Shown one piece after another: positions 49,216 to 62,393 of a stretch of DNA of 64,000 bases (its first letter is position 1; every line of letters starts with the position of its first letter). The DNA is taken from positions 6,179 through 70,178 of the forward strand of contig JAFQRV010000008.1 in the NCBI GenBank assembly GCA_017409905.1. The letters run 5' to 3'. The DNA comes from Bacilli bacterium (GTDB lineage: Bacteria > Bacillota_I > Bacilli_A > ML615J-28 > CAG-313). A program made the position numbers and the translations under genes. Below the pieces are notes generated by a model. It was not told where the DNA came from and did no database searches. It saw nothing but the letters and a program-made list of their open reading frames with translations.

Positions 49216-49247
49216 AAAAAGTGGTAGAAATTCTACCACTTATTTTT
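49214..49247. terminator. Bidirectional terminator between the kinase-like gene and the 808-aa lipoprotein gene
   Basis: A7-AGTGGTAGAA-A-TTCTACCACT-TATTTTTT. Confidence 0.85.
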
Positions 49248-51673
49248 TATGCTTGTAAATCGTATAATTTAAATACAATACACATACCACTATAGTAAAT
49301 ACCAATATAATCACCAGTAAATAAATTATTAGTTGGATCCGTAATTGGATTACCTTGAGCATCTACTAAATATGTACCATTAAAGTAACCAAAACCATTG
49401 ATACCTTCAACTTTATCACCTTGGAATGTTGGAGCACCTAAAGTAAAAGTTTGATCTAAAACAGTTTGTAAATATGGATTAGTTGCACCAAAATCAAATA
49501 CTACATCATTATAAGTTAATGAACCTTGAACTTTTTCACCTGTAAATGATTGAGCATTACCTGATTTAATAATACTTACAAAGTTAAAGTATGAAATTGA
49601 TGGATCACTAGGATTTGGAGTTAAGAAAGTTTTACCATAGGCATTTAAGATTTGGTCTAATTGTTTAATTTGTGGAACAAGTATAGTTGCGTTAACTACA
49701 GAGAACCAACCTTCTGTACCTGCAACATATGAATCTAATGTACAATCAATAAATTCTGTATGAGCAATACTTTCATCTGCTTCTCCAGGTCTAACATGGT
49801 CTTGAATTAAAATTGGTCCACCAGCACCTTCAAATGTACAGTTTTTAACAGTAAATAATGGACTACCCCAGTTATATAAGAATGAGTTGAATGAATCATA
49901 AGATTTAGAATCTTCAACAGTCATTTGAGCTTTTGTAAGTTCTGGGAAGAAGGCAATAAATAATCCAGTAGATAATGTGTTTTTAACCATTGCTTCAGGT
50001 CCTTGTACTTGAACTAAAATTAATCCACCAGCTTTTTGTTTTTCTTCAACTTTAGGAGCATTTCCTAAGAATGAAATATTCTTAACATTAACTTTACCAG
50101 TTGCATCACCATTAAAGTGTAAGATTACAGAGTGACTAATTACTGTACCTTCTGCAGTAATATTATCATTTTCTCTTGTAACAAGAGGAAGAGTTGAAGT
50201 ATCCATATTGAAATAGTTACCGTATAAACCAAATTCTGCGCCAACTGCATGATGATGATATAAATTAACATAGTCTCTTAATGAACCTAATGTTCTAGCA
50301 TAATCAGAATGTGATGGTGATAAATCACTATCACCTTCATTATAGAAGAATTCTTTTGGAAGATCTTCTTTTGTAACTTTAATATTAGCATGTAAAATTA
50401 CATTTGCTGGATGATAATTTGCATCTAAATTATGTTCTTGTTTAAATGCAGCCCATTCTGCATATCCTTCAACATCACTTGGTCTATTTTCCACAAAAGC
50501 TAAATCAAGTGCAGTATATGCATTAAAGCCATCAACAACTTGACAATAATAAGTAACTACATATTTACCAATTTGATCAGCAGCTTGTTGTCTTGCTGTT
50601 AAATACATTGGAACGATTTCCACTTTTAATGATTTACCAACAGCAGCTTCACTAAAATTAATTGAACCACTTTCTTTATCAAAACTATCAACTAATAAAG
50701 CTTCTTCACTAACAGCTACATATTCTCCACCAACTAATTCATATAAATTATAAGTGAAATGCCATGCACCAGTATATGCATCAAAATCATCACCAGCTGC
50801 ATTTAATATACCTAATTCATAAATTGGTAATACTTTCCAACCATTGTCATCGCCAACCATGTATGGTTGTGTTCTATCAACATATTCAATTTCTTTATTT
50901 GTTTGTTCTTTAATATTATTATTATAAGCAACCCAATTTCTGTTTGCAGAAGTAGATAATACATAAACATATTGTTCCCATTTAGCATATAATACTAAAT
51001 CTTCATATACTTCTGTTGAGAAATCATATTTTTGAGTTAAAGCTTCATCAGTATACCAACCAGTTACTCTATGAGCAGTACTCTTTAATTCAGCAGGTGC
51101 AGTTGCAGTATTAGAATATACAACATTTTGTTGTTCTACTTCAAAACCAGCACCAGCATTAAATTCAACAGTAAATACTTCAGCAGTATCAACCCATTTT
51201 GCATATAAAGTTAAATCACTAGTAACTTGAGAATTAAAATCATATCTGTTTTCAAATTCAGCATCAAGATACCAACCCATTAAAGTTAATTCAGCATTTT
51301 CTACAGTAGGACGTTTTACAACTTCCCCTTCTTTAACTTCTACAGGTTCAACTACTGCATCACAATTTGTTTCAAATGCAACTGTAAATAATTCAGCCCA
51401 TTTTGCATAAATAATAATACTCTTATTTAATGCTGTATCGAATTTATATTCTTCAGTTAATTCAGCATCCTTATACCAACCAACAAATACACTGCCTTCT
51501 TTTTCAGGATCTTCTGGTTTTGTTGGAATAGCGCCTTTAACAACTTCCATTTGTGCAATTTCGCTTCCACCATTTGTTCTAAAAGTAATTCTATAAGATG
51601 AAGCTTGTCCTACACATCCAGTTGTCACTAAAGCTAATAAAACTAAAACAACTAATTTTTTTAATAATTTCAT
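49247..51673 (-). CDS. Large surface lipoprotein with three InlB B-repeat (Listeria-Bacteroides / Flg_new) modules and a ~570-aa unassigned C-terminal domain
   Basis: Lipobox LVTTGCVG. Three repeats ending in GWY.D..L...Y.F.......L.LYAKW. Confidence 0.75.
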   Translation of the reverse strand: MKLLKKLVVLVLLALVTTGCVGQASSYRITFRTNGGSEIAQMEVVKGAIPTKPEDPEKEGSVFVGWYKDAELTEEYKFDTALNKSIIIYAKWAELFTVAFETNCDAVVEPVEVKEGEVVKRPTVENAELTLMGWYLDAEFENRYDFNSQVTSDLTLYAKWVDTAEVFTVEFNAGAGFEVEQQNVVYSNTATAPAELKSTAHRVTGWYTDEALTQKYDFSTEVYEDLVLYAKWEQYVYVLSTSANRNWVAYNNNIKEQTNKEIEYVDRTQPYMVGDDNGWKVLPIYELGILNAAGDDFDAYTGAWHFTYNLYELVGGEYVAVSEEALLVDSFDKESGSINFSEAAVGKSLKVEIVPMYLTARQQAADQIGKYVVTYYCQVVDGFNAYTALDLAFVENRPSDVEGYAEWAAFKQEHNLDANYHPANVILHANIKVTKEDLPKEFFYNEGDSDLSPSHSDYARTLGSLRDYVNLYHHHAVGAEFGLYGNYFNMDTSTLPLVTRENDNITAEGTVISHSVILHFNGDATGKVNVKNISFLGNAPKVEEKQKAGGLILVQVQGPEAMVKNTLSTGLFIAFFPELTKAQMTVEDSKSYDSFNSFLYNWGSPLFTVKNCTFEGAGGPILIQDHVRPGEADESIAHTEFIDCTLDSYVAGTEGWFSVVNATILVPQIKQLDQILNAYGKTFLTPNPSDPSISYFNFVSIIKSGNAQSFTGEKVQGSLTYNDVVFDFGATNPYLQTVLDQTFTLGAPTFQGDKVEGINGFGYFNGTYLVDAQGNPITDPTNNLFTGDYIGIYYSGMCIVFKLYDLQA

Positions 51674-51690
51674 AATTAAATTCTCCTTTT

Positions 51691-52131
51691 TTACCCTAAT
51701 ATATCTTCTAAGCTTGGTTTACAAGTAATTTTAATTCTTAAAGATATATTGGAATTTCTATCTGTTGGAACGATTTCAATAAATGTCGTACCAGAATCTA
51801 ACATTTTGATAGTACATGTACCATCCCCATTTTCTACAAACTCAAATTTCTTTCCTAATTCATCACTATCATAGTCAAATCGTAGATTTGGATTAGTTGC
51901 ATTATCTGGTTCAACCTGGCATTTAATAACCACTTCTTGATTTTTTTGAACTGTAATAACTCCATCACAATATTCATCATTCTCAACAGCTACATATCCA
52001 TCTGTTATACATATTATTTTTTCTACATATACCTTTTCATTATAAACTTTTAAAGCTATTCCTAAAAATCCAACTACGACGATTGCTAGAATATATATTA
52101 TACTTATAGTTAAAATTACTGATTTTTTCAT
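51691..52131 (-). CDS. Membrane-anchored Big_2-like (bacterial Ig-like) domain protein
   Basis: 146 aa with an N-terminal TM segment. VEPDNATNPNLRFDYDSDE...GTTFIEIVP fits the Big_2 pattern. Confidence 0.6.
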   Translation of the reverse strand: MKKSVILTISIIYILAIVVVGFLGIALKVYNEKVYVEKIICITDGYVAVENDEYCDGVITVQKNQEVVIKCQVEPDNATNPNLRFDYDSDELGKKFEFVENGDGTCTIKMLDSGTTFIEIVPTDRNSNISLRIKITCKPSLEDILG

Positions 52132-52139
52132 ATTTTCAA

Positions 52140-53810
52140 CTACCCCTCATAATAATAAGCTTTAATCTTTTTAATAAACAATATTACACAACTTGTACAA
52201 TAAACTAAAGAAATAATCAACATTCTAATACATGCAGGTAAATAACTACCATGTTGTACACCTGATTCATCGAATAAAATGAATGCGATTACTGCATAAA
52301 CAAATGATAAGATAAATGCTAAAATAGTTGATTTATTTTCATTAGGATTATCGTTTACAACCCCAGTTGATGCATATTGTTCATTTTGTGGATTCATTAC
52401 ATCAAGTAAAGCACTATATATCATGTGCCCATAATGTAATAATAATATTGCAAAGCCAAGAATAATTATATTCCATGCATTAAATCCTACTGAATCGCCA
52501 AATATCCAAACAGTTATAAATACTGTAGGTATTGATAATATTAAGTTAAAGAACAATTTAGTAAACAGTGGATATAACGCGTATATTGGTTTAACTTTTT
52601 TCAAATATCCGGCTTTACCTTCACGACTGTAGTATGTCGCAACTAATGCATTAGATGCAAGCAATGGTAAACAAATAATTAAAATATTAAATGTAAAGAT
52701 TAATATTTCCCCTAAATATTTTAAGTCCATTGCCCCATATAAAGCATTTAGTAACAAAATAAGAATTGGAACAACTATATAAACCATTAAATAATTAATA
52801 GATATTGATATAGTTCTTAAATTAATTTTTAACTCTTTATTTACAAATGTAAAATATTTAGAATGTCTAACATTCTTATTATGACTTTGACGTGATTTAT
52901 TCACTTCAAAGTTTTTAGCCATTATACTAAAGAATAATGGTCTTGCAAGTAAATATACAAATGCTAATAATGCAAAATCGATAACTAATAATAGACCAAA
53001 CTTTAAAATAGTCATAATATTGATTACACAATCAGCATCAATACTTGCTTGTTCTCCAACAATAATTCTTATTAAGAATCGCATTGGTGGAAGATTAGCT
53101 TCTACATTAACTAAGAATTGATATAACCATTTCTTAATAGTAGGCCATTGATTAATTAAGTCAATCTTTTCAGGAATCAAATTAATTAATCGAACGATTG
53201 CTATAATAACTAAAGTTAATATAGAACCAAATAAGATAACTTGTAAAATTGAATATCTTTTAAAGAATTTATATACATACATTGTAGGTATTGATAAAAT
53301 TGCCCCTAATAATACAGGTATCGCAATTATCAATAGTAATGGAAACCACATCCATAAGAATGCAAATGGACTTGCACATCCTTTACTAACTAATAGTATT
53401 ACACTACCAAGCGTAATAGGTATTAAGAAACTTAAACTTCTTTTTATTTCATAGATATAAAATACAATTAATTTTGATAAGAAAATAATGTTACTATTTA
53501 CTGGAAATGTAATTAATACTCTATTATCTTCTGCAAAATATAAATTAAGCATTAAATCTTTTGTACAAGATATCAATGAAAGAATTAATGAAAATGTAAC
53601 AACTAAGATCATTATTCTTGGTGATTCACTATAATAAAAGATACCAATTACTTGACATAAATAAAGTACTACATAAGTGATAGCTGTTATAATCGCAAAT
53701 TTTAAAAAACCAAATAATAATGTTCTAAAAATATTCATTTTAGTTTTTGCCCAACTAAAATCAATTTTATTTCTTAGTTGCATCATTACTAGAGTCTTTA
53801 AGTTTTTCAT
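52140..53810 (-). CDS. Polytopic membrane protein, putative ABC exporter permease
   Basis: 556 aa with at least 12 hydrophobic segments. The start overlaps the stop of the upstream ABC ATPase fusion (TAATG). Confidence 0.6.
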   Translation of the reverse strand: MKNLKTLVMMQLRNKIDFSWAKTKMNIFRTLLFGFLKFAIITAITYVVLYLCQVIGIFYYSESPRIMILVVTFSLILSLISCTKDLMLNLYFAEDNRVLITFPVNSNIIFLSKLIVFYIYEIKRSLSFLIPITLGSVILLVSKGCASPFAFLWMWFPLLLIIAIPVLLGAILSIPTMYVYKFFKRYSILQVILFGSILTLVIIAIVRLINLIPEKIDLINQWPTIKKWLYQFLVNVEANLPPMRFLIRIIVGEQASIDADCVINIMTILKFGLLLVIDFALLAFVYLLARPLFFSIMAKNFEVNKSRQSHNKNVRHSKYFTFVNKELKINLRTISISINYLMVYIVVPILILLLNALYGAMDLKYLGEILIFTFNILIICLPLLASNALVATYYSREGKAGYLKKVKPIYALYPLFTKLFFNLILSIPTVFITVWIFGDSVGFNAWNIIILGFAILLLHYGHMIYSALLDVMNPQNEQYASTGVVNDNPNENKSTILAFILSFVYAVIAFILFDESGVQHGSYLPACIRMLIISLVYCTSCVILFIKKIKAYYYEG

Positions 53811-55930
53811 TAACTTCTTTCCTCTACAACTTCTTCATCAAATTGTTCAATTGTTTGCATGTAAAATTCTTCTAATGTTTTTCCTGTAGCTTCTATTTCT
53901 TCTAATGTTTTTACACAAAGAATTTGACCTTTTCTAATAATCGCAATTCTTTGACATAACTTTTCAACAATATCGATTAAGTGTGAACTAAAGAATACAA
54001 TATTACCTTCAGAGGCATGGATTCTCATACACTCTTTTACTTGGAAAATACTATTTGGATCAAGCCCAGTAAGCGGTTCATCTAAAATCCATACTTTAGG
54101 ATTATGTACTAAAGCTGACATAATAGTAATCTTTTGTTTCATACCATGAGAGTAAGTAGCAATCTTACTATCAATGGCATGTTCTAATTGGAAGATTTTA
54201 ATATATCTTTCTAATCTTTCATTTCTTTCTTCTTCTGTAACATTGAAGATATCCGCAATATAATTTATATATTCACGACCTGTTAATTTTTCATATAAAG
54301 CATAGTGGTCAGGAACATAACCAACATTGAATTTAGCTTTTGTTGGTTCTTTTGTTACATCATAACCACAAATCTCAATTGCACCTTCACTAAGTGGTTG
54401 TATACCAACAACTGATTTAATTATTGTTGATTTACCGGCACCATTTGGACCTAAGAAACCAAATATTTCACCACCGAACACTTCAAATGATGCATCTTTT
54501 ACAGAATAATGTTTATTAGTTCCATACTTCTTTGAGAAATGCTTTAATTCTAATTTTATCTCACCATTATTGTTCATCATTTCCTCCTTTTGTTCAGTAG
54601 ATAAATTTTTCAAATATTCTAATTTTTGTTGTTTGCTAACAACTAAACGTACATGTAAATCATAATGACTATCCGCAATTCTAAAGAATTCTGCATAAAT
54701 AAACCATTCAGCAAATCCTAATATTACATAAACGATAAAGAATAGAATTTGATAAATTGGTCTAAATACTAATTGATATCCCATAACATCTAAACTTACA
54801 TTAAATTCAAATAAATGTTCTGCCCATTTACCTAATTTATCAGCAATAAAATCTGAATTAATAAAGAAGAAATCGACATCATGTCCCATAGCTGTAAATA
54901 ACACATTACATACTAAAGCAATAACGAAATATGCAAAGAATCCAACCATTGAATAGTAAAACTCTTTAATTTTAGGACGTTTAAAGATTTTTAAAGCAAC
55001 TATTAGTAATGGCATAAAGAATGCAACCCAGTGATTATACCAGAATCTTATAAGCCCTGGATCAAATAAATTTGTCGAACTACTATAGTTAGGCATAAGC
55101 ATTGCGAACAATGCACCAAGTACGTTAATAAAATATGTAAAATAGAATAATTTTTTTAACTTAAATATTAAACAAAGGGGAATAATAAATAATGCAGTAT
55201 TACATAAATGAATTGGCCAAGACCATGGTTCTTTAAGACTAGCAAAATCATAACCAACCATAAAGCCAATTAAAACACCACAACTTACAAATACTAATGC
55301 AAATCTTCTTATAACTTCTTCTTTATCTCTTAATAAGAAATACATTACCATTGGTACAATAACACCTAAGTATAAGAAAATTCGATGTGCAAATGAAATA
55401 TCAATTACACTTATGATTGGATTTGCTAATCCAAAAGCAAACTTTAAAAAATATGTTGGCATAGTTGGTATCATCAATAATAACCAAATACCAATCATAA
55501 CTAAAATTGACTTAATAGTTACTTTTTCTTTTAGATCGATTATAAAATAATAACCCCATATTACAAAACCTAATAAGCATTCAATAAGCAACAATGTTTT
55601 AAATGCATTAAAATCAATAGTTCCAGTTAATAATACACTACATGAGTTAATATATAGTAAGTTTATAACATAAGTTATTGGAACAATAAATCTAGTAATA
55701 AATCTTAGACTCTTAATATTAAAGAAAGGTCTACATCCAAGAGTAAGTGTCGCGGTAAACTGAAACCATATCGCAAGTAAAGTAATTAAAGTAATACCTT
55801 TCGAATAAGGTGATGAGTCTAAACCTTCATAAGCATAAATACTATTATTATAAGAAAATATTCTTACAATTAAGATTAGCATCAACAAAATTGGCAATAT
55901 TCTTTCGAATATTATCTTTCGTATTTTCAT
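53810..55930 (-). CDS. Fusion: N-terminal ~440-aa polytopic membrane domain (YwaF/TIGR02206, TMEM164-like core) plus C-terminal ABC ATPase
   Basis: NBD: GPNGAGKST, SHGMKQK, WILDEPLTGLD, FSSH. Membrane part: WPIHLCNTALFIIPL...AMLMPN...FWYNHWVAF, paralogous to the stand-alone gene at 56161. Confidence 0.7.
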   Translation of the reverse strand: MKIRKIIFERILPILLMLILIVRIFSYNNSIYAYEGLDSSPYSKGITLITLLAIWFQFTATLTLGCRPFFNIKSLRFITRFIVPITYVINLLYINSCSVLLTGTIDFNAFKTLLLIECLLGFVIWGYYFIIDLKEKVTIKSILVMIGIWLLLMIPTMPTYFLKFAFGLANPIISVIDISFAHRIFLYLGVIVPMVMYFLLRDKEEVIRRFALVFVSCGVLIGFMVGYDFASLKEPWSWPIHLCNTALFIIPLCLIFKLKKLFYFTYFINVLGALFAMLMPNYSSSTNLFDPGLIRFWYNHWVAFFMPLLIVALKIFKRPKIKEFYYSMVGFFAYFVIALVCNVLFTAMGHDVDFFFINSDFIADKLGKWAEHLFEFNVSLDVMGYQLVFRPIYQILFFIVYVILGFAEWFIYAEFFRIADSHYDLHVRLVVSKQQKLEYLKNLSTEQKEEMMNNNGEIKLELKHFSKKYGTNKHYSVKDASFEVFGGEIFGFLGPNGAGKSTIIKSVVGIQPLSEGAIEICGYDVTKEPTKAKFNVGYVPDHYALYEKLTGREYINYIADIFNVTEEERNERLERYIKIFQLEHAIDSKIATYSHGMKQKITIMSALVHNPKVWILDEPLTGLDPNSIFQVKECMRIHASEGNIVFFSSHLIDIVEKLCQRIAIIRKGQILCVKTLEEIEATGKTLEEFYMQTIEQFDEEVVEERS

Positions 55931-55963: not shown

Positions 55964-55992
55964 ATTTTACAATTTATTAGTTTTTTTTTCAA
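55964..55992 (-). promoter_or_regulatory. Sigma-A promoter for the ABC-fusion operon
   Basis: On the - strand: TTGAAA, a 17-nt spacer, then TAAAAT. Confidence 0.6.
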
Positions 55993-56104
55993 GTGTTTAA
56001 CAAATAGAATACATATTCTTAATACTAGAAAGCACATGTATTTTTTAATAAAAATAACAATATGCTTTCTAATAGCAATTTTATGCATTTTAGTTTTTTT
56101 GCCA

Positions 56105-56133
56105 TTGAATTATTGAATAACTTATGATAAAAT
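56105..56133 (+). promoter_or_regulatory. Sigma-A promoter for the YwaF-like / YhhN-like genes
   Basis: TTGAAT (56105-56110), a 17-nt spacer, then TAAAAT (56128-56133) preceded by TGA (extended -10). Confidence 0.6.
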
Positions 56134-56160
56134 ATTGAAAGTTTATAATGGAGATTATTT

Positions 56161-56997
56161 ATGAATTGGCTTGAAAGATTTTTAATATTATTAGATTCTA
56201 GTATGACTACACCAAATACTTTTGGGTGGTTTCACTTTATGTTTGTTTTAATAGTAATTGGGGTAACCTTTTTATTATGTCACTATTTCAAAGATTGTAA
56301 TGAAAAAACATTTAAGAAAATTATACTAATTACTTGGATTGTTATTTTTGTACTTGAAGTATATAAGCAAATCAACTTTTCTTTTAACTATGAAAATGAT
56401 ATTGTATCTTGGGATTATCAATGGTATGCTTTTCCATTTCAATTGTGTTCAACACCTCTTTATATTTTACCTCTTATTGCTTTTTTCAAAGATGGTAAAA
56501 TTTATCAATCTGCAATCGCTTATACCGCAACTTTTGCATTCTTTGGAGGTCTTGCGGTAATGATTTATCCAGGAAATGTTTTTATCGAAACAATCGGTAT
56601 TAACATTCAAACAATGGTTCACCATGGTTCACAAGTTGTTATGGGAATCTTTTGTTTAGTACATGAAAGAAAAAGATTTGATTTTAAATATTATTTAAAA
56701 GGATTACCAGTATTTGGCATATTATTAAGTATTGCGGTAATCTTAAATATTACTGTTTATCATATTTTTCAAAACTTAAATATTGATGAATCATTTAATA
56801 TGTTTTATGTAGGACCATATTTTGAGTGTTCTTTACCGCTTTTAAATATCATTTATCCCCTTGTTCCATTTGTTGTTTTCTTACTAATTTACTTAATTGG
56901 TTTTGTTTTGATTTCTTATATCATTTATTTTGTCTTTACTAAAATAAATAATGCAGTTGGAAAAAAACATGTATATACTAAAATACAAGAAGATTAA
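56161..56997 (+). CDS. YwaF/TIGR02206 family integral membrane protein (TMEM164-like)
   Basis: 278 aa. WYAFPFQLCSTPLYILPL...VMIYPGN...TMVHHGSQVVMG matches the P-x-x-LC / P-[DGN] / H-rich pattern of the family as I recall it. Confidence 0.6.
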   Translation: MNWLERFLILLDSSMTTPNTFGWFHFMFVLIVIGVTFLLCHYFKDCNEKTFKKIILITWIVIFVLEVYKQINFSFNYENDIVSWDYQWYAFPFQLCSTPLYILPLIAFFKDGKIYQSAIAYTATFAFFGGLAVMIYPGNVFIETIGINIQTMVHHGSQVVMGIFCLVHERKRFDFKYYLKGLPVFGILLSIAVILNITVYHIFQNLNIDESFNMFYVGPYFECSLPLLNIIYPLVPFVVFLLIYLIGFVLISYIIYFVFTKINNAVGKKHVYTKIQED

Positions 56998-57661
56998 TTT
57001 TACATTTATATTCATTTTATTAGAATTAATCCTAGGAATTTTGGTTCAAACAACAAAAGGAATAGTTACTACGGTAGTTTCTTATTCAGCTATTATTTTA
57101 GCGTTTCTTTATTCATTAATTATTTTTTTAAAAACTAAATCAAATGTTAATATAACAATAGGTTTAGCTTTTACTTTATTAGCGGATTTCTTTTTAGTCG
57201 TTTTAAATCCTATTAAACAACTTCCCGCAATGTTATGTTTTAACGTAACCCAAATTATGTATTTCATAAAAATATTAAAAGACCAAAATAAAAAAGAACA
57301 AATAATTCATCTTGTTATTAGATGTACTATTTGTTTAATTAGTATTATTTTAACAATTCTTGTTTTAAAAGAAAAAACTGATTTACTAACTATTGTCTCA
57401 ATTATTTATTATGCAAATCTAATAACTAATATTATTTTTAGTTTTATTAAAGAAAATAAAAATCTTTTATTTTCTATAGGTTTAATCTTATTTGCTTGTT
57501 GTGATGCAATCATTGGTTTATCTGTTTTAAGTGATGCATATTTGAATATTAATAATGCATTTATTAATTTCTTATTACATCCTGGTTTTAATTTGGCTTG
57601 GCTATTTTATGTTCCTTCACAAACATTATTAGCACTTTCTACCTATCATATCACTAAATAA
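56951..57661 (+). CDS. YhhN-like (lysoplasmalogenase/TMEM86-like) membrane protein
   Basis: About 230 aa, polytopic. LAFTLLADFFLVVL...AMLCFNVTQIMYFI and GLILFACCDAIIGLSVL resemble the two YhhN half-motifs (L.FS..GD..L / F..SD). It overlaps the upstream gene; ATG 56969 is an alternative start. Confidence 0.5.
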   Translation: MQLEKNMYILKYKKINFTFIFILLELILGILVQTTKGIVTTVVSYSAIILAFLYSLIIFLKTKSNVNITIGLAFTLLADFFLVVLNPIKQLPAMLCFNVTQIMYFIKILKDQNKKEQIIHLVIRCTICLISIILTILVLKEKTDLLTIVSIIYYANLITNIIFSFIKENKNLLFSIGLILFACCDAIIGLSVLSDAYLNINNAFINFLLHPGFNLAWLFYVPSQTLLALSTYHITK

Positions 57662-57663
57662 AC

Positions 57664-57700
57664 AAATCCAGTTCATTTTATTTGAACTGGATTTTTTCTT
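57664..57700 (+). terminator. Terminator after the YhhN-like gene
   Basis: AAATCCAGTTCA-N7-TGAACTGGATTT plus TTTTC. Confidence 0.85.
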
Positions 57701-61175: not shown

Positions 61176-62393
61176 TTATTGATTTCTTTGATCGTTTAAA
61201 TAGTCAATACATTGAACAAATTCAAAGACTTTCTTTTTATTAGTTGGTACTACTCTTAAGAAGAATTCTTCATTTGGAATTTCAAATCTTCTTCCAGGAT
61301 CATATGGTAATTGAGGAATTAATGGTAATTTAAATTCTTTTTTAATTTCTTCATCAAGAAGTTTACCCTCTATATAGAATTCATCTTTCTTAAGAACTAC
61401 CTTACCACTACCACAAATTTCTAATTTCTTTGGATTAATTAGATTAGACATATATTCGCATTCATCATTAAATTCAATTCCATCTTCGAATTCTTTACCA
61501 ATAACTTGTTTTTGCCAAGACATCCATTCACTTACCATTTCAAAAACTTTATCCTGTTCTGTTTTTGGATGCATAAAGCCAAATTGATCCATAACCAATG
61601 CATTACCACATTCAGTACAATGGCATTCATTTTTATGTGATTCATAAGAATATTTTTTACCACACTTAGGACATCTAATAAAGATATTTTCTAAACCTTC
61701 AGCAATTCTTTTAGTATGAATTTTTCTTTTTAGAGTTCTTTGTTCAGCAAATTCATCAACATGAATTGCTTCTTCAATTCTTCTTAAGATTTCTTCATCT
61801 ATTAATGTAGTTAATTCTTCTTTTTTAAGAACTGTTACAAATTCACTAGTAACCTTACAACTTCTTTTGCTTGTACGCCATTTTGGGAAAGTTAAGTGTG
61901 CACCATGTGTACGCATTGCGACTACATCTGCTTTTGCAAGTTTTACTAATTTTACGATTGCAGGAGACATATATGATGGTTTTCCATCAATAGTGATTTG
62001 TCCAGTTGGAGCAATCGCTACAATTCCTTTTTTATCAAGAACTTTTTTTATTTTTCTTATTGCTACTAAATCCGGCTTAAATTGTTCTTTACTAATAGCA
62101 TTAGCTAATCTTAATAAAGTACCAACTGGCTTTGTTAGTAAGAAACAACTTGCAACAACATAGCTTACTCTTCTAAAATTTAATGATGCTTTGATAAAGA
62201 AATGATCTTGATTAGAATAATGGTTATATACTAGTAAGAACCCATCTTTATGATTTTTTAGAGCTTTACGGTTATATCTAATTCCAGTTTTAAAGAATAG
62301 CATTATCTTACTAGCAATAGTCAAAATAATATTAAGCCACATAGGCATTAGTATTCGTTCTTTTTTCTTTTTCTTCTTTTTATCTTTTTCCAT
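61176..62393 (-). CDS. PlsC-like lysophospholipid acyltransferase with a zinc-ribbon-containing C-terminal domain
   Basis: HX4D motif NHYSNQDH, N-terminal TM segment, a block similar to the PEG motif (IAPTGQ), then CPKCG-N13-CTECG. Confidence 0.7.
   Translation of the reverse strand: MEKDKKKKKKKERILMPMWLNIILTIASKIMLFFKTGIRYNRKALKNHKDGFLLVYNHYSNQDHFFIKASLNFRRVSYVVASCFLLTKPVGTLLRLANAISKEQFKPDLVAIRKIKKVLDKKGIVAIAPTGQITIDGKPSYMSPAIVKLVKLAKADVVAMRTHGAHLTFPKWRTSKRSCKVTSEFVTVLKKEELTTLIDEEILRRIEEAIHVDEFAEQRTLKRKIHTKRIAEGLENIFIRCPKCGKKYSYESHKNECHCTECGNALVMDQFGFMHPKTEQDKVFEMVSEWMSWQKQVIGKEFEDGIEFNDECEYMSNLINPKKLEICGSGKVVLKKDEFYIEGKLLDEEIKKEFKLPLIPQLPYDPGRRFEIPNEEFFLRVVPTNKKKVFEFVQCIDYLNDQRNQ

What the first reader, a model, noticed from the sequence alone, without database searches (positions are those of the whole stretch)
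55993..57661. Divergent YwaF-like plus YhhN-like gene pair: both have eukaryotic homologues in ether-lipid/plasmalogen metabolism
What the sequence shows: directly opposite the ABC-fusion operon, a stand-alone paralogue of its membrane domain (56161-56997; FPFQLCSTPLYILPL, MIYPGN, VHHG) overlaps a ~230-aa polytopic gene (56951-57661). That second gene carries two motifs, TLLADFFLV...CFNVTQIMYFI and LFACCDAIIGL, that resemble the YhhN family half-motifs.

Established knowledge, from memory: human TMEM164 (YwaF-like) has been reported as an acyltransferase that makes C20:4 ether phospholipids. TMEM86A/B and bacterial YhhN proteins are lysoplasmalogenases.

Inference: the whole 49.2-57.7 kb locus may be a membrane (ether-)lipid remodelling and export module.

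The 112-bp gap between the two -35 boxes also holds a 14-nt palindrome, AGAATACATATTCT (56006-56019), and an 8-bp inverted repeat, AGAAAGCA-N28-TGCTTTCT (56027-56070). Either could be an operator, but no regulator gene is adjacent.
Basis: partly seen in the sequence, partly recalled or inferred. Interest (0 to 1): 0.65.

Follow-up and report, generated by a model that had tools for sequence, protein, structure and literature searches.

The report
Conserved YwaF–YhhN membrane lipid-enzyme operon
Two overlapping genes for membrane enzymes, whose human relatives both handle lyso-ether (plasmalogen-type) lipids, form a gene pair kept together in about two thirds of the uncultured gut Firmicutes that carry the second gene, which points to an undescribed bacterial ether-lipid turnover step that has not been tested biochemically.

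Summary
ORF1 (56161-56997) passes Pfam's cut-off for TMEM164/YwaF, and ORF2 (true start probably 56969, end 57661) passes it for YhhN. Together they form a two-gene operon with its own promoter, a 29-nt overlap and a terminator hairpin.

YwaF keeps the Cys/His dyad (C96, H154/H155) at the spacing of human TMEM164. The YhhN protein belongs to a divergent subfamily. It keeps both catalytic Asp residues, the Gly and the Tyr of TMEM86B, but has Gln in place of His and no Lys.

The pairing is conserved. ywaF is directly adjacent on the same strand in 46 of 71 informative genomes of uncultured gut Bacilli and Clostridia. The flanks differ, two gene orders occur, and no other neighbour is shared. Seen from the YwaF side, only about one third of relatives have the partner.

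The most likely function is two coupled steps on one ether lipid: sn-2 acyl removal or transfer, then vinyl-ether hydrolysis. The plasmalogen link stays inferred. One relative has plsA/plsR-like genes directly upstream, but none lie in this window.

The palindromes occur no more often than chance and are not conserved. Two TATGC(A/T)TT boxes are conserved instead. The link to the neighbouring ABC-fusion operon is weak but not excluded. I found no paper describing this pair.

The parts
55964..55992 (-). Promoter-like site of the leftward ABC-fusion operon (TTGAAA-17-TAAAAT)
   Evidence: Consensus scan, 10 of 12 matches. Both hexamers lie in blocks conserved in window, L093, L094 and L096.
56006..56019 (.). 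It is imperfect and forms part of a degenerate inverted copy of the two-box unit at 56008-56036.
   Evidence: Sequence. The right arm is lost in L093 and L094. It is at chance level. The inverted two-box match has 3 mismatches.
56027..56070 (.).
   Evidence: Exact in the window and in L093. L094 has two uncompensated changes. It is at chance level. The right arm lies inside conserved box 1.
56061..56089 (+). Two TATGC(A/T)TT boxes 13 nt apart, ending 15 nt upstream of the -35 of ywaF. A candidate regulator site, function unknown.
   Evidence: Apart from the promoter hexamers, these are the only spacer blocks conserved in all four relatives. The motif is not enriched elsewhere in the window.
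56105..56133 (+). Promoter of the ywaF-yhhN operon: TTGAAT-17-TAAAAT with an extended -10 (TGATAAAAT)
   Evidence: Consensus scan with TG. CATTGA and ATGATAAAAT are conserved in window, L093 and L094.
56150..56153 (+). Ribosome-binding site GGAG, 7 nt before the ATG of ywaF
   Evidence: Read directly from the sequence. Conserved in L093 and L094.
56161..56997 (+). ywaF: a 278-aa polytopic membrane protein of the TMEM164/YwaF family with a putative Cys96 / His154-His155 catalytic dyad
   Evidence: PF14808 hit. C96, H154 and H155 are invariant in 30 homologues. The AlphaFold model has pLDDT 81 and seven long helices, with C96 and H154 at helix starts. NCBI names it 'YwaF family protein'.
56969..57661 (+). 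yhhN-like gene: 230 aa from 56969 (236 aa if read from 56951), 8 TM helices, a divergent YhhN/TMEM86 subfamily. It overlaps ywaF by 29 nt.
   Evidence: PF07947 hit. Start supported. D79, D185, G177 and Y220 align with the catalytic residues of TMEM86B, and Q101 replaces the His. The AlphaFold model has pLDDT 90.5.
57664..57694 (+). Intrinsic terminator: a 12-bp hairpin followed by a T run, closing the two-gene operon
   Evidence: Terminator scan: 2 sites found against 0.4 expected in shuffles.
53810..55930 (-). Neighbour, not shown to be part of the module: a 706-aa fusion of a YwaF-like membrane domain (Cys243/His300) with an ABC ATPase. It is the first gene of the operon at 49247-55930.
   Evidence: Pfam hits, dyad positions, rarity and recurrence of the fusion, and context in relatives.

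Best explanation
Positions 56105-57694 hold a self-contained two-gene operon for two integral-membrane lipid enzymes that work on the same substrate pool.

- YwaF belongs to the TMEM164/AIG1/GPC1 superfamily. It most likely uses Cys96 with His154/155 to take the sn-2 acyl chain off a glycerolipid through an acyl-enzyme intermediate, and then passes it to water or to another lipid.
- The YhhN-like protein belongs to the TMEM86 lysoplasmalogenase family. Its translation is coupled to YwaF by a 29-nt overlap. It most likely uses Asp79, Asp185 and Tyr220 to hydrolyse the sn-1 vinyl-ether bond of the lyso-lipid that results, giving a fatty aldehyde and a glycerophospho-head group.

Together they would dispose of or remodel plasmalogen-type lipids. 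These could be lipids the cell makes itself or lipids taken up from the gut. Lysoplasmalogenases act only on the sn-2-deacylated form, so they need such a partner.

Shown: family membership, conserved catalytic residues, operon structure, and conserved gene pairing.
Inferred: the substrates, the direction of the YwaF step, and the order of the two steps.
For: Operon structure:
- Promoter, ribosome-binding site, overlapping genes and terminator are all present.

Family membership and active sites:
- Both proteins score above Pfam's cut-offs.
- C96 and H154/H155 are invariant in 30 YwaF homologues. They are 58 residues apart, as are C123 and H181 of human TMEM164. C123 is required for transfer of an acyl chain to lyso-ether phospholipid (Reed et al., bioRxiv 10.1101/2022.07.06.498872).
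- D79, G177, D185 and Y220 of the YhhN-like protein align with D88, G175, D183 and Y206 of TMEM86B (hhalign E 1.2e-4; HMM alignment). Both Asp residues are essential in TMEM86A/B (PMC11994398).

Conserved pairing:
- ywaF lies directly upstream on the same strand in 42 genome loci and directly downstream in 4, out of 71 informative loci. It lies within 5 kb in 3 more.
- The ORFs overlap in 39 of the 42 upstream cases.
- The flanking genes differ between loci.
- No other gene family recurs in more than 11 of 82 loci.
- In L083 and L085 the order is reversed and the YwaF partner is only 30-33% identical, which suggests the pairing arose more than once.

Link to plasmalogens:
- In L001, plsA/plsR-like genes sit directly upstream on the same strand. 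Their architecture matches that described in PMC12838417.
- The hosts are Clostridia and Erysipelotrichaceae-like Bacilli, groups in which plsA/plsR are reported (PMC9702350).
Against: - No biochemical data exist for any bacterial YwaF in the library searched.
- The subfamily has an invariant Gln where TMEM86B has His108, and no Lys at the position of K53. Mutating K53 cuts activity to below 10%. The chemistry or the substrate may therefore differ.
- The Pfam score is modest, and 7 of 32 members miss the model.
- plsA/plsR-like genes are absent from the window and from all other fetched loci. Whether plsA/plsR occur in the same genomes as the pair could not be tested.
- Among YwaF relatives, 43 of 63 informative metagenome contigs lack the YhhN partner. 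YwaF therefore has a function that does not need YhhN.
- No aldehyde-handling gene is linked to the pair.
Confidence: 0.42

Rival explanations
1. The pair is a lysolipid detoxification or repair module with two parallel routes. Lysoplasmalogens and other lysolipids reach the outer leaflet from the gut (host, diet, phospholipase A2). YwaF re-acylates them, as TMEM164 does, or YhhN destroys them, as proposed for M. tuberculosis YhhN. The two enzymes share a substrate but do not act in sequence.
For: - TMEM164 acylates lyso-ether phospholipid using a diacyl phospholipid as the acyl donor.
- M. tuberculosis YhhN protects against toxic host lysolipids although the bacterium makes no plasmalogen (PMC9052158).
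- Every homologue found comes from an animal-gut or fermentation metagenome.
- By the positive-inside rule applied to the AlphaFold helices, C96/H154 and D79/D185/Y220 all sit in the outer half of the membrane (this is inference).
Against: - Two competing enzymes in a translationally coupled operon is an unusual design.
- Nothing distinguishes this reading from the sequential model with the data in hand.
- The caveats about the missing Lys and His apply here too.
Confidence: 0.2
2. The pair acts on a lipid that is not a plasmalogen. The Gln-for-His and missing-Lys active site would mark a YhhN subfamily with a different substrate or reaction, for example another glycerolipid, a glycolipid or a polyprenyl-linked intermediate. 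YwaF would then be a general acyl-transferase or hydrolase.
For: - Q101 is invariant and no conserved Lys is present.
- The match to the YhhN model is borderline in strength.
- Most YwaF relatives lack YhhN.
- Members of the superfamily use varied substrates: FAHFA hydrolysis by AIG1 and acyl-CoA by GPC1.
- No plsA/plsR lies in the window.
Against: - Both essential Asp residues, the Gly and the Tyr are kept in register.
- All four characterised YhhN proteins are lysoplasmalogenases.
- H108A keeps more than 10% of activity in TMEM86B, so a Gln there need not abolish the reaction.
- L001 places the pair directly after plsA/plsR-like genes.
Confidence: 0.25
3. One reading: the whole stretch 49.2-57.7 kb (ABC-fusion operon plus ywaF-yhhN) is one ether-lipid remodelling and export module under shared control from the divergent spacer.
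For: - The divergent arrangement is kept in L093, L094 and, at 74% YwaF identity, in L096.
- In the distant L078, a YhhN-subfamily gene with no stand-alone ywaF lies 103 nt from the end of a homologous fusion operon.
- The fusion keeps a Cys/His pair.
- The spacer holds a mirrored pair of two-box units at equal distance (15 nt) from both -35 hexamers.
Against: - 79 of the 80 genome loci with the YhhN subfamily have no such operon within 10 kb.
- L096 has the operon and ywaF, but yhhN lies on another contig.
- L179 has two copies of the operon and no yhhN.
- The operon's other conserved gene is a large surface protein, not a lipid enzyme.
- The leftward copy of the boxes is degenerate and is not kept in L096.
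Confidence: 0.1
4. The adjacency is inherited gene order with no functional meaning.
For: Many loci come from related uncultured lineages, and some local gene order is shared within clades.
Against: - The pair is kept across two classes (Bacilli and Clostridia) while all flanking genes change.
- Both gene orders occur, with different YwaF subfamilies.
- The reading frames overlap in most pairs.
Confidence: 0.03

Closest known systems
Human TMEM164 (PF14808), the CoA-independent acyltransferase that makes C20:4 ether phospholipids
   Same: - Same Pfam family.
- Cys and His are invariant and 58 residues apart, each at the start of a TM helix, as for C123/H181.
   Different: - The bacterial protein has no tested activity.
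- Bacteria of this kind lack arachidonate, so the acyl specificity must differ.
- It is encoded in an operon with a YhhN gene, an arrangement that has no counterpart in animals.
TMEM86A/TMEM86B and the bacterial YhhN lysoplasmalogenases of Legionella pneumophila and Mycobacterium tuberculosis (PF07947)
   Same: - Same Pfam family, with eight TM helices.
- Both catalytic Asp residues, the Gly eight residues before the second Asp, and the Tyr of the last helix align.
   Different: - His108 becomes an invariant Gln, Ser182 becomes Cys and Gly87 becomes Ala. There is no Lys at the K53 position, where Ser is usual.
- An extra conserved N-terminal helix carries E25 and Q33.
- The subfamily is restricted to gut Bacillota metagenome-assembled genomes.
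AIG1/ADTRP lipid hydrolases and yeast GPC1, the other branches of the 'ATGY' superfamily
   Same: They share the 6-TM core with a nucleophile/His dyad, according to Reed et al.. This shows that the fold supports hydrolysis as well as acyl transfer.
   Different: They use a Thr nucleophile (AIG1) or an acyl-CoA donor (GPC1). Sequence similarity to them was not detectable here.
PlsA/PlsR, the anaerobic plasmalogen synthase
   Same: It belongs to the same presumed pathway area. A plsA/plsR-like pair lies directly upstream of ywaF-yhhN in L001.
   Different: The proteins are unrelated (soluble HAD/BCR-type reductases). They are not linked to the pair in the window or in any other fetched locus.

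Membership tests
TMEM164/YwaF family (PF14808; ATGY superfamily) | Score above Pfam's gathering cut-off over most of the model | tested here: met
   53.5 bits against a cut-off of 25; residues 21-244 match model positions 2-205 of 217.
TMEM164/YwaF family (PF14808; ATGY superfamily) | A nucleophile (Cys, Ser or Thr) on core TM2 and an invariant His on core TM4 | tested here: met
   C96 and H154/H155 are invariant in 30 sequences. They are 58 residues apart, as in human C123/H181, and lie at the starts of helices 95-108 and 149-168 of the model. A direct alignment to human TMEM164 was not made.
TMEM164/YwaF family (PF14808; ATGY superfamily) | Six-TM core fold | tested here: inconclusive
   The AlphaFold model (pLDDT 81) has seven long helices, read as one extra helix plus six. 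No solved structure of the family is in the PDB for comparison; the best Foldseek E-value is 0.78.
TMEM164/YwaF family (PF14808; ATGY superfamily) | Acyl-transferase or hydrolase activity on lipids | not testable with these tools
   Needs biochemistry.
   No NCBIfam family matched at E <= 0.1. Whether TIGR02206 is in release 20 is not known to me. NCBI's own record nevertheless names the protein 'YwaF family protein'.
YhhN family (PF07947) | Score above Pfam's gathering cut-off | tested here: met
   47.9 bits against a cut-off of 25.6. 25 of 32 subfamily members match at E <= 0.01, with no competing family.
YhhN family (PF07947) | Eight transmembrane helices | tested here: met
   The AlphaFold model (pLDDT 90.5, pTM 0.87) has eight long helices plus one short one. 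It shows a weak rhodopsin-like resemblance (TM-score about 0.45), as reported for YhhN models.
Lysoplasmalogenase (TMEM86A/B, LpYhhN, MtbYhhN) | The two essential Asp residues (TMEM86B D88 and D183), with G175 and Y206 | tested here: met
   D79, D185, G177 and Y220 align with them (hhalign; HMM alignment). D79, D185 and Y220 are invariant and G177 is nearly invariant.
Lysoplasmalogenase (TMEM86A/B, LpYhhN, MtbYhhN) | The conserved Lys (K53) and His (H108) of the proposed active site | tested here: not met
   Q101 is invariant at the His position. Ungapped extension of the HMM alignment puts S44 at the Lys position, and no conserved Lys exists in the first two helices. The alignment around K53 is the least certain part.
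Lysoplasmalogenase (TMEM86A/B, LpYhhN, MtbYhhN) | Hydrolysis of the vinyl ether of lysoplasmalogen | not testable with these tools
   Needs an enzyme assay, for example the hydrazone HPLC assay of PMC11994398.
Anaerobic plasmalogen pathway context (plsA/plsR) | plsA/plsR present in the same genome or locus | tested here: inconclusive
   None was found in the 64-kb window or in any of the 91 loci then in hand except L001 (tblastn). In L001, plsA/plsR-like genes lie directly upstream. Whole genomes could not be searched.

The most novel reading that the evidence does not exclude
The YwaF-YhhN operon would be the first bacterial plasmalogen turnover pathway: an sn-2 deacylase or transacylase coupled to a vinyl-ether hydrolase with a Gln-containing active site.

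It would give the large, uncharacterised bacterial YwaF family its first function. It would also show that the functional link between TMEM164-type and TMEM86-type enzymes in lyso-ether-lipid handling is ancient, or arose more than once.

In gut Firmicutes it would govern how bacterial, dietary or host plasmalogens are broken down to fatty aldehydes.
Probability: 0.3. Interest if true: 0.75.

Novelty: new variant of a known kind. Interest (0 to 1): 0.55.

Why it matters
- Plasmalogens are abundant in anaerobic gut bacteria and in host tissues. Their synthesis genes in bacteria were found only in 2021, and no bacterial route for their turnover in plasmalogen-producing anaerobes is known.
- YwaF is a large bacterial family with no tested function.
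- A conserved, translationally coupled YwaF-YhhN pair gives a concrete hypothesis for both families that a few experiments can test.
- It ties two human enzymes of ether-lipid metabolism (TMEM164 in ferroptosis, TMEM86A/B in plasmalogen breakdown) to a single bacterial module.
- It also defines a YhhN subfamily with an altered active site (Gln for His, no Lys). That subfamily can be used to probe the still unknown catalytic mechanism of lysoplasmalogenases.

Tried and rejected
- **Palindromes as operators: rejected.** They are at chance level. The right arm of the first is lost in L093 and L094, and the second has uncompensated changes in L094.
- **Rfam scan of the whole window:** nothing found.
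- **hhalign of the subfamily profile against the single E. coli YhhN sequence: uninformative**. E. coli YhhN reads ISN where TMEM86B has S182-D183 by motif position, so it is a poor reference.
- **TMEM86B sequence recalled from memory:** it was one residue off in numbering and only 80-91% identical to database primate orthologues. I used it only to fetch authentic orthologues, and the profile comparison rests on those.
- **Sequence search of the PDB with the subfamily profile:** no hit. Fold searches of both models found no solved homologue.
- **Search for plsA/plsR-like genes near the pair:** found only in L001.
- **Search for any third conserved neighbour:** none. The recurring genes (SmpB, RadC, a GT2 glycosyltransferase, a methyltransferase) reflect shared gene order within clades.
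- **HMM search for cryptic YwaF-like genes in the loci that lack one:** none.
- **TATGCATT boxes as a regulon motif:** not enriched in the window.
- **Literature searches for a YwaF/YhhN or TMEM164/TMEM86 link:** none found.
Full report
**Observation.**
- ORF1 (56161-56997, 278 aa) matches Pfam PF14808 'TMEM164 family' at E 2.9e-14, 53.5 bits against a cut-off of 25.
- ORF2 (56951-57661) matches PF07947 'YhhN' at E 1.7e-12, 47.9 bits against 25.6.
- No NCBIfam model matched either protein.
- The neighbouring 706-aa protein (53810-55930, minus strand) carries a TMEM164-like domain (residues 180-373) fused to an ABC ATPase.
- ORF1 is only distantly related to that domain: 33% identity over 58 residues, E 1e-4.

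The window is part of a 145-kb contig of an uncultured 'Bacilli bacterium'. NCBI names ORF1 'YwaF family protein' and ORF2 'hypothetical protein'.

**Operon anatomy.**
- Promoter: TTGAAT (56105-56110), 17 nt, TAAAAT (56128-56133), preceded by TG. It is conserved in close relatives.
- Ribosome-binding site: GGAG at 56150-56153.
- Start of the second gene: most likely the ATG at 56969, not 56951. Met7 is nearly invariant among homologues. The gene call in L093 and the NCBI protein of 230 aa both start there.
- The two genes then overlap by 29 nt, which suggests translational coupling.
- Terminator: a 12-bp hairpin with a T run at 57664-57694.

**Active sites.**

*YwaF.* In an alignment of 30 homologues (49-96% identical), C96, H154 and H155 are invariant. 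They are 58 residues apart, the same spacing as C123 and H181 of human TMEM164. There, C123 is required for transfer of an acyl chain from phosphatidylcholine to lyso-ether phospholipid (Reed et al.). That paper also states that bacterial YwaF proteins carry a Ser, Thr or Cys nucleophile with an invariant His. In the AlphaFold model (pLDDT 81), both residues sit at the start of transmembrane helices.

*YhhN-like protein.* I compared a profile of 32 subfamily members with a profile of 16 authentic mammalian TMEM86B sequences (hhalign E 1.2e-4, probability 55%). A separate HMM alignment agrees for the first half. Eight residues are proposed as catalytic and were tested by mutagenesis in TMEM86A/B (PMC11994398):

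| TMEM86B residue | This protein | Result |
|---|---|---|
| D88 | D79 | kept |
| G175 | G177 | kept |
| D183 | D185 | kept |
| Y206 | Y220 | kept |
| G87 | A78 | replaced conservatively |
| S182 | C184 | replaced conservatively |
| H108 | Q101 (invariant Gln) | replaced |
| K53 | probably S44 | no counterpart |

Both Asp residues are essential in the human enzymes. H108A keeps more than 10% of activity, and K53A does not. The protein is therefore a true member of the YhhN family (25 of 32 members hit the model). It belongs to a distinct subfamily whose chemistry may be altered. The AlphaFold model is confident (pLDDT 90.5) and has eight long helices. The PDB holds no solved relative of either protein.

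**Conservation of the pair.** This is the main new result.

*From the YhhN side.* A scan of one genome per species (GTDB) with the subfamily profile returned 80 loci. All come from uncultured gut Bacilli, Erysipelotrichaceae, Oscillospiraceae, Christensenellaceae and other Clostridia. Counts below include two loci fetched earlier.

| Position of ywaF relative to yhhN | Loci |
|---|---|
| Directly upstream, same strand | 42 |
| Directly downstream | 4 |
| Within 2-5 kb | 3 |
| Absent, with enough flank to tell | 22 |
| Too little flank to tell | 6 |

- That makes 46 of 71 informative loci with direct adjacency.
- In 39 of the 42 upstream cases the maximal ORFs overlap.
- The surrounding genes differ from locus to locus.
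- An all-against-all clustering of every ORF in 82 loci found no other family in more than 11 loci. Those families reflect shared gene order within clades: SmpB, RadC, a glycosyltransferase and a methyltransferase.
- In L083 and L085 the order is yhhN then ywaF, and that YwaF is only 30-33% identical to ORF1 while keeping its Cys and His.
- One MAG (GCA_017398545.1) has both genes on different contigs.

*From the YwaF side.* Among 63 informative metagenome contigs with a YwaF relative, 20 have the YhhN gene next to it and 43 do not. The dependence therefore runs one way: this YhhN subfamily usually comes with YwaF, whereas YwaF often stands alone.

**The spacer.**
- The 14-nt 'palindrome' is really 6+2+6. 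Together with the 8-nt inverted repeat, it is no more than chance gives in a 230-nt spacer of 20% G+C.
- The right arm of the first repeat is lost in L093 and L094. The second has two uncompensated changes in L094.
- Besides the promoter hexamers, what is conserved in four relatives, including the more distant L096, is a pair of TATGC(A/T)TT boxes at 56061-56068 and 56082-56089. They end 15 nt before the -35 of ywaF.
- A degenerate inverted copy at 56008-56036 ends 15 nt before the -35 of the leftward promoter.
- The motif is not enriched elsewhere in the window, and no regulator gene is adjacent. I record this as a lead only.

**The ABC-fusion operon.**
- Its membrane domain keeps a Cys/His pair, C243 and H300.
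- The domain belongs to a rare family: 216 relatives among 1.84 billion representatives. Many are 700-830 aa, a length that fits the same fusion.
- The operon type (fusion, polytopic protein, small protein, large surface protein) recurs in L078 and L179.
- It faces ywaF-yhhN only in near-identical relatives. It faces ywaF alone in L096.
- In L078 it ends 103 nt from a yhhN gene that has no stand-alone ywaF.
- It is absent from the other 79 genome loci.

This is too little to call the 8.5-kb stretch one module, and too much to dismiss.

**Link to plasmalogens.**

For:
- Every characterised YhhN protein is a lysoplasmalogenase.
- TMEM164 acts on lyso-ether phospholipid.
- The host lineages are ones in which plsA/plsR are reported.
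- In L001 a plsA/plsR-like pair lies directly upstream on the same strand. It consists of a 971-aa protein with two activase domains plus DUF2229 and a 412-aa DUF2229 protein, which matches the published architecture.

Against:
- That is one locus among more than 80.
- The window itself has no such gene.
- Genome-wide co-occurrence could not be tested.
- The active site is altered.

**Mechanism.** Lysoplasmalogenase acts only on the sn-2-deacylated lipid. The YwaF superfamily includes both acyl-transferases and hydrolases built on the same dyad. The simplest reading of a translationally coupled pair is therefore two consecutive steps. YwaF removes or transfers the sn-2 acyl chain, and YhhN cleaves the vinyl ether of the lyso-lipid.

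The one-way dependence fits this: a deacylase or transacylase can work alone, but the vinyl-ether hydrolase needs a supply of lyso-substrate. The main rivals are a parallel 'repair or destroy' handling of imported lysolipids, and action on a different lipid.

By the positive-inside rule applied to the predicted helices, both sets of catalytic residues lie in the outer half of the membrane. That is compatible with action on outer-leaflet or imported lipids. This is inference only.

**Novelty.** Both families are known. The library holds no paper that links them in bacteria or assigns a function to any bacterial YwaF. The conserved operon and the Gln-type YhhN subfamily are therefore new variants of known kinds. 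They are supported by comparative genomics and not yet by experiment.

Noticed in passing
window 49247-55930 (minus strand); L078 7538-14629; L179 2738-15038: An operon whose first gene fuses a roughly 440-aa membrane domain to an ABC ATPase. The membrane domain holds a YwaF/TMEM164-like core with Cys243/His300. It is followed by a 556-aa polytopic protein with no Pfam hit, a 146-aa protein and an 808-aa lipoprotein with Listeria-Bacteroides repeats. The membrane domain has only 216 relatives among 1.84 billion representatives, many of a length that fits the same fusion. The operon type recurs in distant Clostridiales. A putative lipid enzyme fused to a transporter ATPase is unusual and has not been described, as far as I could find.
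   Followed up: partly
window 56061-56089 and 56008-36: Two TATGC(A/T)TT boxes 13 nt apart are the only spacer blocks, besides the promoter hexamers, conserved in four relatives. A degenerate inverted copy lies at the same 15-nt distance from the opposite -35. This may be a shared regulator site for the two divergent promoters. No regulator is known, and the motif is not enriched elsewhere in the window.
   Followed up: partly
L001 861-6714: In one Clostridia-type MAG (GCA_052830805.1), plsA/plsR-like genes lie directly upstream of ywaF-yhhN on the same strand with a 172-nt gap. They encode a 971-aa protein with two activase domains plus DUF2229 and a 412-aa DUF2229 protein.
   Followed up: partly
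L083 1757-3339; L085 8428-10027: Erysipelotrichaceae- and Mollicutes-labelled MAGs carry the pair in reverse order (yhhN, a 38-nt gap, then ywaF). The YwaF there is only 30-33% identical to the window's and still has the FPFQFC and HTMMWH motifs.
   Followed up: partly
window 61176-62393 (minus strand): A 405-aa PlsC-type acyltransferase (NHYSNQD, an HX4D motif; weak PF01553 hit on the L093 orthologue). It has a Lys-rich N-terminus and a C-terminal extension with a four-Cys CPKC...CTEC motif. In close relatives, two ABC exporter genes, a DNA-alkylation repair gene and then a cardiolipin-synthase-like PLD gene lie beyond it (L093, L094).
   Followed up: no
L179 862-2541: A FakA-like fatty-acid kinase gene lies directly upstream of two tandem copies of the YwaF-ABC fusion operon. 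This hints that the operon type relates to the use of exogenous lipid.
   Followed up: no
L097 483-1286: A patatin-like phospholipase gene lies two genes upstream of a stand-alone ywaF (57% identical to ORF1) on a 383-kb metagenome contig.
   Followed up: no
L092 10752-11378 (E. coli K-12 yhhN): By motif position (not by a significant alignment), E. coli YhhN reads ISN where TMEM86B has the essential S182-D183. The family's namesake may therefore not be a typical lysoplasmalogenase.
   Followed up: no
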